From NCBI RefSeq assembly GCF_006345805.1, contig NC_043006.1:74958001-75022000 (forward strand): a stretch of 64,000 bases of DNA. Reading direction: 5' to 3'. The position numbers are program-made. This DNA comes from Octopus sinensis (taxonomy: Eukaryota). Position 1 is the stretch's first letter. Each line of letters begins with the position of its first letter. Positions 1 to 37,833 of the stretch are shown here, in pieces.

Positions 1-2350
1 TGCATACGCCTTGTAGGTGTAGCTATATTTGCTATGTACTGTGTGACAAATCATACGCTTAATTTACAAGCGTGAAACTTCAAGTAACATTGGAGTGAAT
101 ATCAACAGTTTAGGAATATATACTTCTATACCAATATGTGTGTGTGTATATGTGTTTGTGCGTGTATGTGTGTGTGTGTGTGTATGTGTTTGTGCGTGTA
201 TGTGTGTGTGTGTGTGTGTTCCCATATATATTAATATTTTGTTTCACCTTACATTATTACAGGTTTCGTTGGTGTAGGATAAATCCACGTCATCAGATAT
301 TCAGGGCCATACATACATATATACGTATACACATATACATATATACAAATACATACATGCATACCTACACACATGCATACATACATACATACATACATCA
401 TACATACATACATACATACATACATACATACATACATACACACACACATACATATATACTTATATATTATTTGATAAACACAAAATATAAAGTAAAGGTA
501 ATTTGCCAACATAATGTGGCTATCTTGGAAAAGATGTTGTTACTGTTCATTATCCCCAGAAACATCGTTTCTAGCTAGCTATACGACACAATATCTGTAT
601 CCTTATATTTTCGAACAGGGCATTCATTATGTTGGTAAATAGTCATTGCTTTAAAGAACCGCTACTAAATATCTCTCTTTGAGAGATTTAGAAATAACAA
701 AATATAAAGATATACATGTATGCATGCACATCTGTACGTCTGTGTGAGTGTGTATATGTACAGACATACACGCATATACATGTATATATACATATATGTA
801 TATATATATATGCATGTATAACTTATAAAATAAGGGCAAAAGAAAAATTCTAATGCCAAATATGCCGAAAAAAAGACACCATTGTCAATAACCATTATAA
901 TTTATGCGTGACGAAACATGCCGATAGAAATTTCTAAAAACCGTTTATAACCGTATGGTCCCATTTCGGGGTTAATTCATAAAATTTTCCTCTCGTCAGC
1001 GATTATACGTAAGACATAAATGGAACTTACTCATACCCATGGAAAAAGCAAGCACTAGGTCCTGAGTAGACCTAAGTACCCCAAATCTATCCCAATAGAA
1101 AATCTTCACCACATTTCGGCGAGACCGTTCGATTCGATCTAGAAATTTGCATGTTGTATATATATATATATATACCAACAATTGAGGTAAAATTAATTAA
1201 TTATTAATCAATTTCACCAAGTATTCAGTATGCAAAGGGACCATTTAATAAGCGATTCAAATATTACATTAATAAAAGGGCTTAGTAAAATAATTACTTT
1301 GCGCATACTGAACTCATTAGAAATATAGCTAAAAAAAAAAACTTTTTTTAACTATTTCTAATACTTAAAGAAAACCCTCTCATATGTGTTTGCTCAATTC
1401 AACTCACGAAGTATGGGGAAAGACATTAAAAAATCAAATGCAAAGGTTTATTTGAGACGTACGTTTCAAGATAGTCAACTCGACATTTCTATCATCAGCT
1501 CAGAACTCCTTGTTTGGATTTGACAACACGAAAGTGGAGCATACCCTTTCGGCTTCTTTATCGCTTCTTCTGAAATCTGCTCGAAACTAACAGTGCCAGC
1601 AAACTCAATATGCAAGCGAAGAATTTCTGCTCTCCCCTTTCCACCAGCGTGGTTTAAAATCATTAAACACTATGCTTTTTTCGGTTAAAATCCGAGGCAT
1701 TAAATAGAGAGAGATGAATTATATTTCAACAATTGAGGGTAAAATTATTAATTATTAATCAAATTCACCAAGTATTCAGTATGCAAAGGGACCATTTTAA
1801 GGCGAATGCAAATATTACATTATATAAAGGGCTTAGTAAAATAAATTACTTTGCCGCATACTGAACTCATTAGAAATAGTAGCTAAAAAAAACTTTTTAA
1901 AACTATTTATGCCCCTCGGATTTTAACCGAAAAAGCATAGTGTTTACTGATTTTAACCCACGCTGGTGGAAAGGGGAGAGCAGAAATCTTCGTTGCATAT
2001 TTGAGTTTGCGGCACTGTTAGTTTCGAGCAGATCTTCAGAAGCGATAAGAAGCCGAAAGGGATGCTCCCACTTTCAGGGTTTTCAAATCCCACACGTATT
2101 CTGAGCTGAATGAAAATGTGCGAGTTGACTAATCTTGAAACGTATCGTTCTCAAATACCTTTGCATTTGATTTTTTAATGTCTTTACCCCCATGCTTTCG
2201 TGAGTTGAATTGAGCAAACACTATAATGAGAGAGGTTTTCTTTAAGTATTAGAAATAGTTTTAAAAAGTTTTTTTTTAGCTACTATTTCTAATGAGTCAG
2301 TATGCGGCAAAGTAATTTATTTTACTAAGCCCTTTTATATAATATTATAT

Positions 2351-2409
<59 letters not shown>

Positions 2410-2979
2410 TGTATGTATGTATTTATTAATGTATGTATTATCTATGTATGTATGTATGTATGTATCTATCTATCTATCTTCTATCTATCTATCTATCTAT
2501 CTATCTCTCTATCTATCTATATATATATATATATATATATATACACCTATACATATAATATTTTTTCATATATGTACACTTATTTATGAGTGTGCATGAG
2601 TGTGTATGCGTGTGTTTAATACAAAAACAGTCTATATAATAGCAATACAAAATTTTCTATTATCATAAACCCAAACATATGCACAACAGAGACTACACTG
2701 ATGAGGCCAACGGCCAAAAACTTATGCTTATTTTGTTATGGATTAGATTTTGAATGGTTGTTCCAGTTGTTTAATGAACTTCATAAGACCTTGCAGCTCA
2801 TTACAGAACTGAACAACCACGCCAATAGTGAGATCTAATTATTTACACATACACACGTACATACATACATACATGCATACATATATACATGCATACACAC
2901 ACGGGGACACACGCTCATACGTATGTATGTATGTATATGTATGTATGTATGTATATATATTGTATGCACACACACACAC

Positions 2980-3015
<36 letters not shown>

Positions 3016-3216
3016 TGATATAAACGTGTAATTATATGTATTACACACCACGCACACAACACCCATGCACACACACACACACACATATCTATATATATAA
3101 TATATATATATATAATATATATATATATATAACGTGTATATATATGTATATACACACAAACACGCACACACAACACACACACACACACACATATATATAT
3201 ACAGAGGAAGAGAGAG

Positions 3217-3250
<34 letters not shown>

Positions 3251-4453
3251 GAGAGAGAGAGAAAGAGAGGCAGAATGAATTTCGAAGATTTTGCAGTCTT
3301 CTAATGAACAGTAGCTCCGCCGATGGTCATTAGAGAACTGAAATTTGTTTGTACACGCATGCATACACGATGATTGTTCCAATTTCACAGATAATTGCTG
3401 TTTCCTGATGCTTCCACGACGTCAATTACATTTCTTACTTTCCGTTTATGGTCGGCATTTCAAATCCGTTGCAGATCTGCGTGGTTTGTAGCATAGGTGA
3501 CAGAAGGATATAACTTACTGTGCGCTTCCAACTGGTTAGGTCTGCATATATTGTCATTCTTCCATCGTTAAAAGACTTTCGGTAGATGGAATGGTGAATA
3601 AAGGCAGCAAGCTGGCTGAACCGATAGCACGCCAGGCGGAATGCTTCGCGGTATTTCGTCTGCCTTTAACGTTCTGAGTTCAATTCTGCCGAGGTCGACT
3701 TTGCCTTTCATCCTTCGGGGTCGATTAAATAAGTACCATGTACGCACTTGGGGTCGATGTAATCGACTTAATCCTTTTGTCTGTCCTTGTTTTGCCTCTC
3801 TGTGTGCCCCTTGTGGTAGTAGAGAATTGGAATGGTGAATGAAGTTGCCCTAAAGAGACATCTGTACGTCTTTTGATTATGGTGATAAATGCTTGTAAAA
3901 GAAGAGTACCATTCTCTTAGTCACCGTGTTTAGTATCCAGTAACTAGCCAAAGCGAGATGTCGGTAATCACGTGAAACAGCAGGTTTTACATCAGAATGT
4001 TCCACTTTTGAAGAATACTGAGACAACAACTAGGGGTCCCTCACTCGCGGAGGTTTTCCTGCGCACCCTGACACCAACCAACGCCCCCGCGTTTTCATAC
4101 ATACATATGTGCATATGTTTCAGTTGTAAATGGATAACCCAGCAGCAGACTAGCCTTCCTATGAAGGGGAATGTTGGCCTACTCACCGAGCCAGCGGAGA
4201 GGCATCATTCAAAAGATAAATCGTTGCAAAGTGCGTTGCGACTAGCGATGTATAACAACGTCCGATAGTCTGACAGATTACGTAATATGCATATCTATAT
4301 ATATATTATTGTGTGCGTTTGTGTGTGTATACGTTTATTATGTGTGTGGTGTATACATATACATATATGTATATATGCATATATATATATATATATTATA
4401 ATTATACATACATACGTACATACATGCATATCGATACGTTTTTGTAAACATAT

Positions 4454-4499
<46 letters not shown>

Positions 4500-4510
4500 C
4501 GCACATATAT

Positions 4511-4554
<44 letters not shown>

Positions 4555-35712: not shown

Positions 35713-35752
<40 letters not shown>

Positions 35753-36652
35753 CAATTAAGGAACGGCCATAATAGGCCATTCACCCACTAGAAATAACAG
35801 CCAAAGCTTCTACCGCAAATAAAGATCAATTCCGTAAACAGGAGAAAATTAAAAAACATTTACCCTGTAATTTCTTGTACGGTATACCGTTTCATCCGTT
35901 GTTAATGGTAAACCAACCTAATTAAATTAAATCAAGCCAATCTTCCATAAGCCCTCGGATTCATCAGCAAGAAATAGCTCTCGGGACAGATAATTACACG
36001 AGGCATATCCAATCTTGCCAAGTCAATATCTGACCTAAAATTTTCAAATCGTCGCACTCGCGCCAAATTTATCGGCAGCAAATAAATATCAGCCGTCGAT
36101 TCCATTACGGAATTAACCTGGTGGCAATAAAATTCTACAAAATTTTCCTTGCCACCCTATATTGATTAATTATGAATTTTTTGGTTAATTCCGTAATGGA
36201 ATCGACGGCTGATATTTATTTGCTGCCGATAAATTTGGCGCGAGTGCGACGATTTGAAAATTTTAGGTCAGATATTGACTTGGCAAGATTGGATATGCCT
36301 CGTGTAATTATCTGTCCCGAGAGCTATTTCTTGCTGATGAATCCGAGGGCTTATGGAAGATTGGCTTGATTTAATTTAATTAGGTTGGTTTACCATTAAA
36401 CAACGGATGATAAACGGTATACCGTACAAGAAATTACAGGGTAAATGTTTTTTTAATTTTCTCCTGTTTACGGAATTGATTTATTTGCGGTAGAAGCTTT
36501 GGCTGTTTATTTCTAGTGGGTGAATGGCCTATTATGGCCGTTCCTTAATTGTTAATGTTGAACTTAAAAATGGTCTATGACTATTTTTTTTTTCCCGCTG
36601 GGCCGCTGGTGGCAATAAAATTCTACAAAATTTTCCTTGCCACCCTATATTG

Positions 36653-36689
<37 letters not shown>

Positions 36690-36690
36690 A

Positions 36691-36725
<35 letters not shown>

Positions 36726-36964
36726 ATATCTATATATATAATAATATATATATATATATTATATATAATATATATTGAGTAGTTGAATGAATTATCTTAT
36801 TAAGGATAATTCGAAAGATAACCGATACCTGGGTAGCAAATTCACATCAGGAAGAACGCGGTTGAAGTTACGTCCCTAGGGCATAGACTACGTGATGCAG
36901 CCTTCGAAACATATGTCGAAAATAAAGGAAATTTGTTAACAAGTCGTTCAACTCTATTCTTTCA

Positions 36965-36999
<35 letters not shown>

Positions 37000-37784
37000 A
37001 GTACAATGTGAGATAGGGGTTATGAGTGTAACCCACTATGGGATATCAGTTATCCAATATACTGCTGGTGAAGCACCCAAAAGGCAAATACATAAATGCT
37101 TATAATTGCAATGCAATTAATTCATTTATTGTATTAGATCGGCGAAGGTAAAATATTTTACCTCAAATTCATAATACAAATAAGAAAATGGAGGTACAGA
37201 ATCATTTCAGTCATCGACTTACAGATATTACCAATTCATATTATCTATTAACTACATAAATAGGAACATCCAAATCCAACAAAATAAAACAATATACATC
37301 AATAAGTAAGATAATACCATAAAAATAATACACATAAAATGGACCTTACAGCTGTTTCAGCCTGTAGATAAGGTATCTCATTCTGTCTATATTAGTCAGA
37401 TGTATTGAGGTAATATGCAGTTAAAAATGAGTTACAAGGCCTCGTCAGAGATTATAAAGTACAATTATAAAAATATATTTTTTTATATATTTTTATAATT
37501 GACGATGTCTTGAGATACGTATATGAGTAACTCATTTTTAACTGCATATTACCTCAATACATCTGACTAATATAGGCAGAATGAGATACCTTTATCTACA
37601 GGCTGAAACAGCTGTAAGATCCATCTTATGTGTATTATTTTTATGATATTATCTTACTTATTGATGTATATTGTTTTATTTTGTTGGATTTGGATGTTCC
37701 TATTTATGTAGTTAATAAATAATATGAATTGGTAATATCTGTAAGTCGATGATTGAAATGAATCTGTTCCTCCATTTTCTTATT

Positions 37785-37833
<49 letters not shown>

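What the first reader, a model, noticed from the sequence alone, without database searches (positions are those of the whole stretch)
253..37787. Several unrelated hammerhead-bearing islands share TA-microsatellite targets and one architecture
Hammerhead or hammerhead-like motifs occur at 253-302, 946-1007, 1449-1505/2096-2158, 34627-34663, 35870-35975/36326-36434 and 37343-37453. The islands show no obvious sequence similarity to each other, but all lie between TA-rich microsatellites. In three (1177-2340, 35749-36659, 37000-37787) the main unit carries the ribozyme in sense and an inverted copy lies 5' of it. This suggests a diverse, microsatellite-associated system of small ribozyme retroelements. 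The Penelope-like machinery seen at 46943-47380 is a candidate mobiliser (inference).
Basis: partly seen in the sequence, partly recalled or inferred. Interest (0 to 1): 0.85.

Follow-up and report, generated by a model that had tools for sequence, protein, structure and literature searches.

The report
Penelope-type hammerhead retroelement insertions in TA repeats
Several short non-coding inserts sitting in TA-repeat tracts carry hammerhead ribozyme motifs and have the head-to-head, partly tandem layout already described for Penelope-like retroelements and their small ribozyme-bearing derivatives, so this is a good example of a known kind rather than a new system.

Summary
Partly confirmed. 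I found a fourth at 25510-25598 (-). That is 4 real loci against 0.05-0.45 expected; 0 of 100 shuffles reached the observed count in any of four settings. Rfam Hammerhead_1 aligns end to end, below its cut-off, to 2 of the 4.

Sites 253-302 and 34627-34663 are not hammerheads. 1449-1505/2096-2158 has only the core boxes. The plus-strand partners at 36326-36434 and about 37500-37630 are broken.

Three islands are head-to-head inverted duplications with their 3' ends facing outward onto (TA)n. Two also carry a partial tandem repeat. This matches the published Penelope-like element (PLE) layout: pseudo-LTR, an inverted 5'-truncated copy upstream, and a microsatellite bias. It also fits the published link between PLEs and small hammerhead retrozymes.

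The TA association is real but not exclusive. An element with terminal inverted repeats and two ribozyme-free palindromes lie at or within about 40 nt of TA tracts or TA-rich sequence too.

The "PLE machinery" at 46964-47446 (-) is a true PLE endonuclease fragment. It is 5'-truncated and stop-interrupted, so it cannot be the mobiliser itself.

Verdict: new members of a known kind; low to moderate interest.

The parts
822..1156 (-). Island A2: solo non-coding unit of about 335 nt. Its 3' end points left toward TA-rich sequence; its 5' end abuts (TA)9 at 1157-1174.
   Evidence: No internal repeats. Longest ORF 52 aa, GC 0.37. Ends are 11 nt and 1 nt from a TA tract.
946..1007 (-). Type-I hammerhead motif. 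Helix I has 8 bp, the core is CUGACGA, helix II has one A-C mismatch, and helix III has 3 bp. The cleavage triplet is AUA, with H17 at 954.
   Evidence: Passes the descriptor only with one helix II mismatch. HHR-constrained fold -5.3 against MFE -9.5 kcal/mol. No Rfam hammerhead hit.
1169..1908 (-). Island A3 main unit, read on the minus strand. It is a 190-nt repeat, a 362-nt body and the 190-nt repeat again, which is a pseudo-LTR-like partial tandem.
   Evidence: Direct repeat 1169-1357 = 1720-1908 at 89.8%.
1903..2350 (+). Island A3 inverted copy. It sits head to head with the main unit and lacks roughly the last 90 nt of the unit's 3' end.
   Evidence: Inverted match 1261-1707 with 2350-1903 at 88.7%. 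The end at about 2350 is 3 nt from (TA)24.
1449..1505 (-). Hammerhead-like remnant with CUGAUGA, GAAAC and the palindrome ACGUACGU. Helices I and II do not form. The partner at 2096-2158 (+) reads CUGAAUGA.
   Evidence: 0 closing pairs in helix II, 1 in helix I. No Rfam hammerhead hit.
25510..25598 (-). Helix I has 6 bp, helix II has 4 closing bp around a 58-nt segment, and helix III is the palindrome ACGAUCGU. The triplet is GUA, with H17 at 25516. The motif's 3' edge is 31 nt from a (TG)n(TA)6 tract (as read on this strand).
   Evidence: Strict descriptor hit. Rfam Hammerhead_1 1-45/45, 18.2 bits, E 0.038. Sequence. No inverted partner within 24000-27500.
35748..36118 (-). Island B inverted copy. 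Its 3' end abuts (TA)17 at 35716-35749 and its 5' end lies at the island centre. It is 12 nt shorter at the 5' end and 102 nt shorter at the 3' end than the main unit.
   Evidence: Arms 35748-36556 are self-inverted. The arm alignment shows 0 substitutions and 5 short indels.
35870..35975 (-). Best hammerhead in the window. Helix I has 8 bp, the core is CUGAUGA, and helix II has 5 closing bp plus a long arm (67 nt). Helix III is the palindrome ACGGUAUACCGU. The triplet is GUA, with H17 at 35878.
   Evidence: Strict descriptor hit. The unconstrained MFE (-31.6 kcal/mol) is the three-way hammerhead fold. Rfam Hammerhead_1 20.5 bits, E 0.0067.
36118..36170 (+). 53-nt copy of the main unit's 3' end, placed just upstream of the main unit as a partial tandem or pseudo-LTR remnant. 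It contains an 8-bp GGUGGCAA/UUGCCACC hairpin.
   Evidence: 100% direct repeat with 36606-36658.
36171..36658 (+). Island B main unit, 488 nt, ending on (TA)n at 36657-36729. Its hammerhead copy (36326-36434) reads GAUAAAC instead of GAAAC.
   Evidence: Longest ORF in the island 74 aa.
37000..37481 (-). Island C main unit. It has an intact hammerhead near its 5' end and 176 nt of extra 3' sequence (37000-37175) that abuts (TA)14 at 36972-36999.
37343..37452 (-). Type-I hammerhead. Helix I has 4 bp, the core is CUGACGA, and helix II has 5 closing bp around an 83-nt segment. Helix III is the palindrome ACAGCUGU. The triplet is GUA, with H17 at 37347.
   Evidence: Strict descriptor hit. Constrained fold -11.6 against MFE -22.5 kcal/mol. 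No Rfam hammerhead hit.
37482..37787 (+). Island C inverted copy. It ends 6 nt from (TA)19. The block that should hold CUGACGAGGCC is replaced by unrelated sequence.
46964..47446 (-). 5'-truncated PLE remnant: the C-terminal GIY-YIG-type endonuclease region, with one in-frame TGA.
   Evidence: ORFs. 73% and 64% identity to residues 455-578 of P0010, whose residues 118-305 match RVT_1. 120 relatives at E<=0.001 among 130 candidates. It is the only such remnant in the window.
253..302 (-). Rejected: core boxes only, not a hammerhead.
   Evidence: Not found by any descriptor setting. Sequence and fold.
34627..34663 (.). Rejected: no CUGANGA box on either strand.

Best explanation
The islands are insertions of short, non-coding, hammerhead-bearing retroelements made by Penelope-like-element (PLE) machinery. 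That machinery is a reverse transcriptase plus a GIY-YIG endonuclease, supplied in trans by autonomous PLEs elsewhere in the genome. The inserts landed in pre-existing (TA)n arrays.

SHOWN
- Four type-I hammerhead motifs occur in four unrelated sequences.
- Three of the four have a short palindromic helix III, and only one is stable as a monomer.
- Three islands consist of two copies joined head to head, with both 3' ends facing outward onto (TA)n.
- Two of those three also have a piece of the unit's 3' end repeated just upstream of the main copy (53 nt in B, 190 nt in A3).
- None of the islands has an ORF longer than 74 aa.
- A PLE endonuclease remnant lies in the same window.

INFERRED
- The endonuclease cuts both strands of a TA tract, and both exposed 3'-OH ends prime reverse transcription. 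This 'twin priming' would give the head-to-head pair.
- The template was multimeric or circular RNA, which would give the partial tandem and the different 3' end points of the two arms.
- The hammerhead acts as a dimer on multimeric transcripts to release unit-length RNA. This follows the published view of PLE hammerheads and non-LTR retrozymes.

My sub-reading (about 0.5 of the total) is that the units (about 335, 450, 490 and 550 nt) are dedicated non-autonomous elements of the retrozyme kind. The alternative is that they are 5'-truncated stubs of full-length PLEs.
For: - Hammerhead enrichment: 3-4 loci against 0.05-0.45 expected, with 0 of 100 shuffles reaching the observed count. Hammerhead_1 alignments cover the full model at 2 of the 4. 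The MFE of 35862-35983 (-) is the hammerhead fold.
- Helix III is palindromic in 3 of 4 motifs, and in the A3 remnant as well. PMC4209133 describes short palindromic helix III, action as dimers, and dual motifs 100-700 bp apart on opposite strands (passages).
- Head-to-head arms and partial tandems are seen. PMC8557442 describes partial tandems forming pseudo-LTRs, an inverted 5'-truncated copy adjacent at the 5' end, an extension at one end, and a (TA)n insertion bias (passages).
- 8 of 9 island ends lie within 6 nt of a TA tract. The figure is 0 of 36 for SINE-like family 1 and 4 of 24 for family 2.
- The islands are non-coding with GC 0.29-0.38. PMC7229834 describes retrozyme repeats of low GC (<45%).
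- The 2026 preprint reports that non-LTR retrozymes are related to PLE pseudo-LTRs (abstract and Results part 1).
- A PLE EN remnant is present in the window.
Against: - No island shares sequence with the only PLE remnant in the window, and no PLE coding remnant adjoins any island. The PLE link therefore rests on architecture and ribozyme type alone.
- No hammerhead reaches Rfam's gathering score, and 2 of the 4 get no Rfam hammerhead hit at all.
- Three of the 4 motifs are less stable in the hammerhead fold than in their MFE, by 4-11 kcal/mol. No cleavage was tested.
- In each pair the inverted copy lacks about 90-180 nt of the unit's 3' end. That is longer than the published 30-40-bp 'tail' and is not what simple twin priming from a fixed 3' end predicts.
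- The hammerhead sits in the body of the unit, not in the repeated segment, in islands A3 and B.
- Retrozymes are defined by tandem arrays with one ribozyme per unit. Here there are at most 1.1-1.35 units in direct orientation.
- TA flanks are shared with the TIR element, and two ribozyme-free palindromes lie near TA tracts or TA-rich sequence.
- No other genome copies could be examined.
Confidence: 0.7

Rival explanations
1. The islands are ordinary 5'-truncated 3' stubs (pseudo-LTR ends) of full-length, catalogued autonomous PLE families. They are not dedicated small elements.
For: [quoted passage not shown] The hammerhead at 25510-25598 ends 31 nt from the TA tract that flanks the element's presumed 3' end, as expected for a 3' pseudo-LTR. 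A PLE remnant is in the window.
Against: In A3 a complete 190-nt repeat flanks a 362-nt body on both sides. In B the 3'-end repeat directly precedes a 488-nt unit. So the unit appears to begin and end without any coding sequence. tblastn with 120 PLE-related proteins finds no coding remnant next to any island. Most of those 120 cover only the endonuclease end, so the test is weak for reverse-transcriptase remnants.
Confidence: 0.2
2. The palindromic islands are DNA-transposon derivatives that target TA (foldback or MITE-like elements), and the hammerhead motifs are passengers or coincidences.
For: An element with terminal inverted repeats (34838-35715) is flanked by TA tracts on both sides. 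Two ribozyme-free palindromes (4571-4900, 51590-51838) lie near TA tracts or TA-rich sequence. TA is the target of Tc1/mariner elements (recalled, not from a call).
Against: All three islands are asymmetric. One arm carries 90-180 nt of extra outer sequence, so the two termini are not inverted copies of each other. B also has a direct 53-nt repeat. Two hammerhead islands (A2 and 25510-25598) have no inverted partner at all. The hammerhead enrichment is far above chance.
Confidence: 0.06
3. The motifs are chance matches in AT-rich DNA and the palindromes are assembly artefacts.
For: Core boxes alone are common: 15 in the window, shuffle mean 3.74. The two arms of island B differ only by 5 short indels in simple sequence, the pattern expected of sequencing error.
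Against: The full descriptor gives 3-4 loci against 0.05-0.45 in shuffles, with 0 of 100 reaching the observed count. An independent covariance model aligns at the same coordinates for two of them. The palindromes are embedded between different flanks, and their arms differ in length and, for A3 and C, in sequence (82-91% identity).
Confidence: 0.03

Closest known systems
Penelope-like elements (EN+ PLEs: Penelope/Poseidon, Neptune, Nematis, Naiad) and their insertion structures
   Same: They share the partial tandem (pseudo-LTR), the inverted copy adjacent at the 5' end, extra sequence at one end only and insertion into (TA)n. They also share type-I hammerheads with a short palindromic helix III, sometimes paired on opposite strands a few hundred bp apart (PMC8557442; PMC4209133).
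   Different: The islands contain no RT/EN ORF. The one-sided extension is 90-180 nt, not 30-40 bp. The hammerhead lies in the unit body rather than in the repeated segment in two islands. Helix II carries unusually long segments (58-83 nt between the boxes in three of four).
Metazoan non-LTR retrozymes (small non-autonomous hammerhead retroelements expressed as circular RNAs)
   Same: Both are short (about 335-550 nt here; published consensus lengths are 51-972 bp), non-coding and low in GC. Both carry a type-I hammerhead and have been proposed to depend on PLEs (PMC7229834; bioRxiv 10.64898/2026.07.22.740005).
   Different: Retrozymes are described as head-to-tail tandem arrays with one ribozyme per unit. 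Here there is at most about 1.1-1.35 unit in direct orientation plus an inverted copy. The passages I read on retrozymes mention neither inverted copies nor a microsatellite target: 'microsatellite', 'inverted' and 'target site' each occur 0 times in PMC7229834. Circular RNA could not be tested.
Rfam Hammerhead_1 (RF00163)
   Same: The full 45-position model aligns to 25510-25598 and 35872-35973, with all core positions matched.
   Different: The scores of 18.2 and 20.5 bits are below the gathering score of 34. Alignment gaps of 50 nt and more fall in the loop of helix II. Two other motifs get no hit.

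Membership tests
Hammerhead ribozyme, type I | Conserved core boxes CUGANGA and GAAA, with an A15.1-U16.1 pair and a cleavable H17 (not G). | tested here: met
   Met at 946-1007, 25510-25598, 35870-35975 and 37343-37452, all on the minus strand. Not met at 36326-36434 (GAUAAA) or about 37500-37630 (no CUGANGA box). Not met at 34627-34663 (no box), or at 253-302 (H17 would be G on my hand reading).
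Hammerhead ribozyme, type I | Three helices (I, II, III) closing on the core. | tested here: met
   Helix I/II/III base pairs are 8/1+mismatch/3, 6/4/2, 8/5/4 and 4/5/2 for the four motifs (the descriptor counts helix III as 3-5). Not met for 1449-1505, which has 1 pair in helix I and 0 in helix II.
Hammerhead ribozyme, type I | Score at or above the curated Rfam gathering threshold. | tested here: not met
   0 matches at gathering score in the window. The best sub-threshold scores are 20.5 and 18.2 bits against 34.
Hammerhead ribozyme, type I | Site-specific self-cleavage. | not testable with these tools
   No experiment was possible. Three of the 4 motifs disfavour the monomeric hammerhead fold by 4-11 kcal/mol.
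Penelope-like element insertion | ORF encoding a PLE reverse transcriptase plus a GIY-YIG endonuclease. | tested here: not met
   The longest ORF in any island is 74 aa. tblastn with 120 relatives hits only 46985-47467 (-) as a PLE remnant; two single-protein hits elsewhere lie far from the islands. The islands are therefore at most non-autonomous or truncated.
Penelope-like element insertion | Partial tandem forming a pseudo-LTR. | tested here: met
   A3: 1169-1357 = 1720-1908. B: 36118-36170 = 36606-36658. Island C has only a 9-nt match that I saw by eye in the sequence, which is inconclusive. Absent in A2 and at 25510-25598.
Penelope-like element insertion | Inverted 5'-truncated copy adjacent to the 5' end. 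| tested here: met
   Three of the 5 hammerhead-bearing or hammerhead-like islands have one. In B the inverted copy is 12 nt shorter at its 5' end.
Penelope-like element insertion | Hammerhead located in the pseudo-LTR. | tested here: inconclusive
   In A3 and B the motif is in the body between the repeats. At 25510-25598 its 3' edge is 31 nt from the flanking TA tract.
Penelope-like element insertion | Microsatellite, (TA)n, insertion bias. | tested here: met
   8 of 9 ends lie within 6 nt of a (TA)>=6 tract, against a 1.1% background. SINE-like controls give 0 of 36 and 4 of 24. Whether the TA is target or 3' tail is not resolved.
Non-LTR retrozyme | Head-to-tail tandem repeats, each unit with its own type-I hammerhead. 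| tested here: not met
   There is never more than one hammerhead per direct-orientation array, and at most 1.1-1.35 units.
Non-LTR retrozyme | Expression as unit-length circular RNA. | not testable with these tools
   No transcript data were available.
TA-targeting DNA transposon / MITE | Matching terminal inverted repeats at both ends, with a TA duplication. | tested here: not met
   In A3, B and C one arm extends 90-180 nt beyond the inverted repeat. A2 has no inverted repeat, and none lies within 24000-27500 around the 25510-25598 motif.

The most novel reading that the evidence does not exclude
The two arms of each head-to-head pair start at different internal points of the unit, and two islands carry slightly more than one unit. 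This would fit reverse transcription of circular or multimeric hammerhead-processed RNA, primed wherever the TA-tract 3'-OH finds a few bases of AU-rich microhomology. Both arm ends of island B fall after the same pentamer, UUAAU. In the boldest version, the telomerase-related PLE reverse transcriptase itself lengthens the flanking (TA)n at each outward-facing 3' end. The 'TA target' would then be partly a product of insertion. Every TA junction whose orientation I could assign is at a 3' end, or is shared with a neighbour's 3' end. The hammerhead island near 25510-25598 has a TA tract on its 3' side only, with no TA tract for about 8 kb on its 5' side.
Probability: 0.12. Interest if true: 0.6.

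Novelty: new member of a known kind. Interest (0 to 1): 0.27.

Why it matters
The window gives a compact natural example of three things at once. Several unrelated hammerhead-bearing short retroelements have piled into TA arrays. All three paired islands show the same PLE-type head-to-head layout. One ribozyme (35870-35975) folds as a textbook three-way junction despite a 67-nt helix II. These loci would be useful starting points for annotating such families in this genome. They could also help test how PLE-type integration produces inverted and partly tandem copies, which the PLE literature itself lists as unresolved (PMC8557442). It does not reveal a new class of element.

Tried and rejected
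- Rfam as sole arbiter. It gave nothing at gathering score and nothing hammerhead-like in the kb-scale permissive scans. The top hits there are microRNA models matching microsatellites, far below their cut-offs, and I treat them as artefacts. Short-range scans recovered 2 of 5 tested sites.
- Type-III hammerhead descriptor: 0 hits in the window and 0 in 50 shuffles.
- Core-only pattern: too unspecific, 15 real against a mean of 3.74. The 9 extra sites have no helices I or II, and I reject them as hammerheads.
- Pfam on the PLE fragment: no GIY-YIG hit. PDB sequence search of the fragment: no meaningful hit. The PLE assignment therefore rests on homology to the C-terminal end of RT-containing proteins and on motifs I recall.
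- Identity of the TIR element at 34838-35715. It looked mariner-like to me from memory, but Pfam and PDB gave nothing, so the name is unconfirmed. One search failed on stop codons, and I re-read the ORFs.
- tRNA scan of the window: 0 genes. The tRNA-like stretch next to the PLE fragment is unconfirmed.
- Cross-island similarity, and similarity between the islands and the PLE fragment: none found.
- timed out and was redone.
- Not checked. Copy number, family consensus, full-length partners and empty sites therefore remain unknown.
- Supplementary files of PMC8557442, PMC4209133 and PMC7229834 (family lists, consensus sequences) could show whether these families are already catalogued. I could not see them.
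- The organism was not established by any search.

Full report
WHAT WAS CHECKED

The window is AT-rich: 23,547 G+C of 64,000 bases. It is full of microsatellites, with 57 merged (TA)>=6 tracts totalling 2,343 bp. The finding lists nine hammerhead or hammerhead-like sites in six items, three islands with a shared layout, and a Penelope-like fragment.

ARE THE HAMMERHEADS REAL?

Rfam gives nothing at curated thresholds anywhere in the window. It lists no hammerhead family in permissive scans of 1-3000 and 34000-38500. The listed microRNA and other hits there sit on microsatellites, far below their cut-offs.

I therefore wrote a type-I descriptor: helix I, CUGANGA, helix II, GAAA, helix III closed by A15.1-U16.1, then a non-G cleavage nucleotide.
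- The strict setting finds three loci on both strands of the whole window: 25510-25598, 35870-35975 and 37343-37452, all on the minus strand.
- Allowing one mismatch in helix II adds 946-1007 (-).
- In 100 block-wise dinucleotide shuffles the means were 0.05, 0.07, 0.15 and 0.45 for four settings. No shuffle reached the real count.
- A type-III descriptor finds nothing.

When only about 100-130 nt are searched, Rfam's Hammerhead_1 model aligns over all 45 positions at two of these four sites, at my coordinates. The scores are 20.5 bits (E 0.0067) for 35872-35973 and 18.2 bits (E 0.038) for 25510-25598, both below the gathering score of 34. It finds nothing at 930-1025, 37330-37465 or 1430-1525. 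The low scores come largely from long segments between the two boxes: 58, 67 and 83 nt in three motifs and 25 nt in the fourth.

The motif at 35870-35975 is the strongest. Its unconstrained minimum-energy fold is the three-way hammerhead junction. The other three are 4-11 kcal/mol less stable in the hammerhead fold than in their best fold. Helix III is a short palindrome in three of the four (ACGAUCGU, ACGGUAUACCGU, ACAGCUGU). This fits the published picture of animal and PLE hammerheads that act as dimers (PMC4209133, passages).

WHAT FAILS

- 253-302 has both boxes but fails the descriptor. On my hand reading no helix II closes and the cleavage nucleotide would be G (sequence).
- 34600-34690 has no CUGANGA box on either strand.
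- 1449-1505 has CUGAUGA, GAAAC and a palindromic ACGUACGU, but no helix II closure and one pair of helix I. Its partner 2096-2158 reads CUGAAUGA. It may be a decayed hammerhead, but a core-only pattern is not informative: 15 matches in the window against a shuffle mean of 3.74 (max 9). The nine additional matches lack helices I and II.
- 36326-36434 reads GAUAAAC where the minus-strand partner reads GAAAC.
- The plus arm of island C lacks the CUGANGA box.

ARCHITECTURE

Island B (35748-36658)
- The arms 35748-36118 (-) and 36183-36556 (+) are inverted copies with no substitutions and five 1-2-nt indels.
- The last 53 nt of the plus-strand unit (36606-36658) are repeated exactly at 36118-36170, just upstream of that unit.
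- The plus strand therefore reads: inverted copy, 53-nt 3'-end repeat, 488-nt unit.
- The inverted copy is 12 nt shorter at its 5' end and lacks the last 102 nt.

Island A3 (1169-2350)
- Read on the minus strand, a 190-nt repeat flanks a 362-nt body on both sides (1169-1357 = 1720-1908, 89.8%).
- An inverted copy (1903-2350, 88.7%) abuts the upstream repeat and lacks roughly the last 90 nt.

Island C (37000-37787)
- The arms 37176-37787 are inverted (90-96%).
- The minus-strand copy has the intact hammerhead and 176 nt of extra 3' sequence.

In all three islands the 5' ends meet in the middle and both 3' ends face outward onto (TA)n. Islands A2 (822-1156) and the one at 25510-25598 are solo copies. 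None of the islands has an ORF longer than 74 aa, and GC is 0.29-0.38. No island resembles another at blastn word 11, E 1e-4.

TA ASSOCIATION

Eight of nine island ends are within 6 nt of a (TA)>=6 tract, while only 1.1% of non-TA positions are. Some ends were defined by the tract itself. The ends defined only by repeat structure (about 2350, 35748, 36658, 37787) also lie within 6 nt of a tract. Two abundant SINE-like families serve as controls: 0 of 36 and 4 of 24 ends.

The association is not exclusive.
- An 870-bp element with terminal inverted repeats (34838-35715) is flanked by TA on both sides.
- Two palindromes without any hammerhead core (4571-4900, 51590-51838) lie near TA tracts or TA-rich sequence.
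- The stretch from about 33750 to 38460 looks like one long TA array interrupted by at least five unrelated inserts.

Because the paired copies put 3' ends on both sides, I cannot tell target from 3' tail in those three. The solo island near 25510 has a TA tract on its 3' side only.

THE PENELOPE-LIKE FRAGMENT

On the minus strand, 46964-47446 translates in one frame with a single in-frame stop.
- The two pieces are 73% and 64% identical to residues 455-506 and 510-578 of a 582-aa protein (P0010), whose residues 118-305 match RVT_1.
- 120 of 130 candidate relatives scored E<=0.001. Six of the 120 carry a precomputed RVT_1 domain.
- The shared motif around the paired cysteines and the G-E-T/R/E-H residues is what I recall as the PLE GIY-YIG signature. 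Pfam's own models did not call it.
- It is the only PLE coding remnant in the window. It covers only the C-terminal end, is flanked by a (TACA)n tract and a tRNA-like stretch, and shares no DNA with the islands.

It shows that PLEs live in this genome, but it cannot be the mobiliser.

INTERPRETATION

The layout matches what is published for PLE insertions:
- a partial tandem that forms a pseudo-LTR;
- an inverted 5'-truncated copy adjacent at the 5' end;
- an extension at one end only;
- hammerheads in the repeats;
- a (TA)n insertion bias, stated for Naiads and hypothesised for Neptune (PMC8557442, passages).

PMC4209133 also reports dual minimal hammerheads 100-700 bp apart on opposite strands, with most motifs scattered as single elements. 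Small non-coding hammerhead elements dependent on PLEs are also published. They appear as non-LTR retrozymes (PMC7229834, passages) and as derivatives of PLE pseudo-LTRs (bioRxiv 10.64898/2026.07.22.740005, abstract and Results part 1).

I therefore read the islands as PLE-mobilised hammerhead retroelement insertions. They are most likely short non-autonomous units. The rival is that they are 5'-truncated stubs of full-length PLEs.

The mechanism is inference by analogy, and none of its steps was tested here:
- a double-strand cut in a TA tract;
- priming from both 3'-OH ends;
- a multimeric or circular template;
- dimeric ribozyme processing.

Departures from the published pictures:
- The one-sided extension is 90-180 nt rather than 30-40 bp.
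- The hammerhead is outside the repeated segment in two islands.
- There is no head-to-tail array with one ribozyme per unit.
- Helix II is unusually long.

NOVELTY

My searches found no paper that combines these points for this kind of genome.
- 'Penelope-like elements' + 'TA microsatellite': 0 papers.
- 'hammerhead ribozyme' + 'cephalopod': 4 papers held the terms and 2 were listed; neither title nor abstract start is on this subject.
- 'penelope' + 'octopus' + 'hammerhead': 5 papers held the terms and 4 were listed.

Even so, each component is already described. The families themselves may be uncatalogued. I could not check that, because no eukaryotic genome collection, repeat library or supplementary file was available.

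Verdict: a correct and useful observation in part, an essentially right but not new interpretation, and new members of a known kind.

Noticed in passing
Its 3' edge lies 31 nt from a (CA)n(TA)6 tract, and it has no inverted partner nearby. It is now part of the finding.
   Followed up: yes
window 34838-35715: An 870-bp element with roughly 30-nt terminal inverted repeats, flanked by (TA)n on both sides, with degraded ORF pieces. It looked mariner-like to me from memory. Pfam and PDB searches gave nothing, so the name is unconfirmed. An 88-nt piece recurs at 38155-38239.
   Followed up: partly
window 45184-45991: Two 270-nt inverted arms (88% identity) enclose about 125 nt of telomere-like TTAGGG-type repeats at roughly 45495-45620.
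   Followed up: no
window 4571-4900 and 51590-51838: AT-rich palindromes (75% and 88% arm identity) without any hammerhead core. They lie near TA tracts or TA-rich sequence. They could be hairpin DNA elements, or head-to-head stubs truncated beyond a ribozyme.
   Followed up: partly
window 35748-36556: The two arms of island B differ only by five 1-2-nt indels in simple sequence and by no substitution. The pattern suggests either a very recent insertion or sequencing error. The 'broken' plus-strand hammerhead may therefore be an assembly artefact.
   Followed up: partly
window 19619-21337 (+) and 54927-57410 (+): ORFs with RVT_1 and zf-RVT matches, probably LINE-type reverse transcriptase remnants. 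They are not PLE-related by tblastn with the PLE protein set.
   Followed up: partly
window 26475-27074 (+): ORF with an Integrase_H2C2 zinc-binding domain (E 3e-9), probably an LTR-retroelement remnant.
   Followed up: no
window 6767-7193 and 7526-7922 (and their copies): Two abundant SINE-like repeat families, with 18 and 12 blocks in the window. Family 2 appears to carry an internal (TA)n tract that is expanded in some copies, for example around 38078-38458.
   Followed up: partly
window 12418-12866: Tandem repeat with a period of about 107 nt (96-98% between copies).
   Followed up: no
window 46895-46960 (-): A tRNA-like stretch directly after the stop of the PLE fragment, followed by a (TAA)n-type tract. 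ARAGORN calls no tRNA in the window.
   Followed up: partly
window 36606-36658 and 36118-36170: The 53-nt repeated 3' end of island B contains an 8-bp GC-rich hairpin (GGUGGCAA/UUGCCACC). It is a candidate 3' recognition element for the reverse transcriptase.
   Followed up: no
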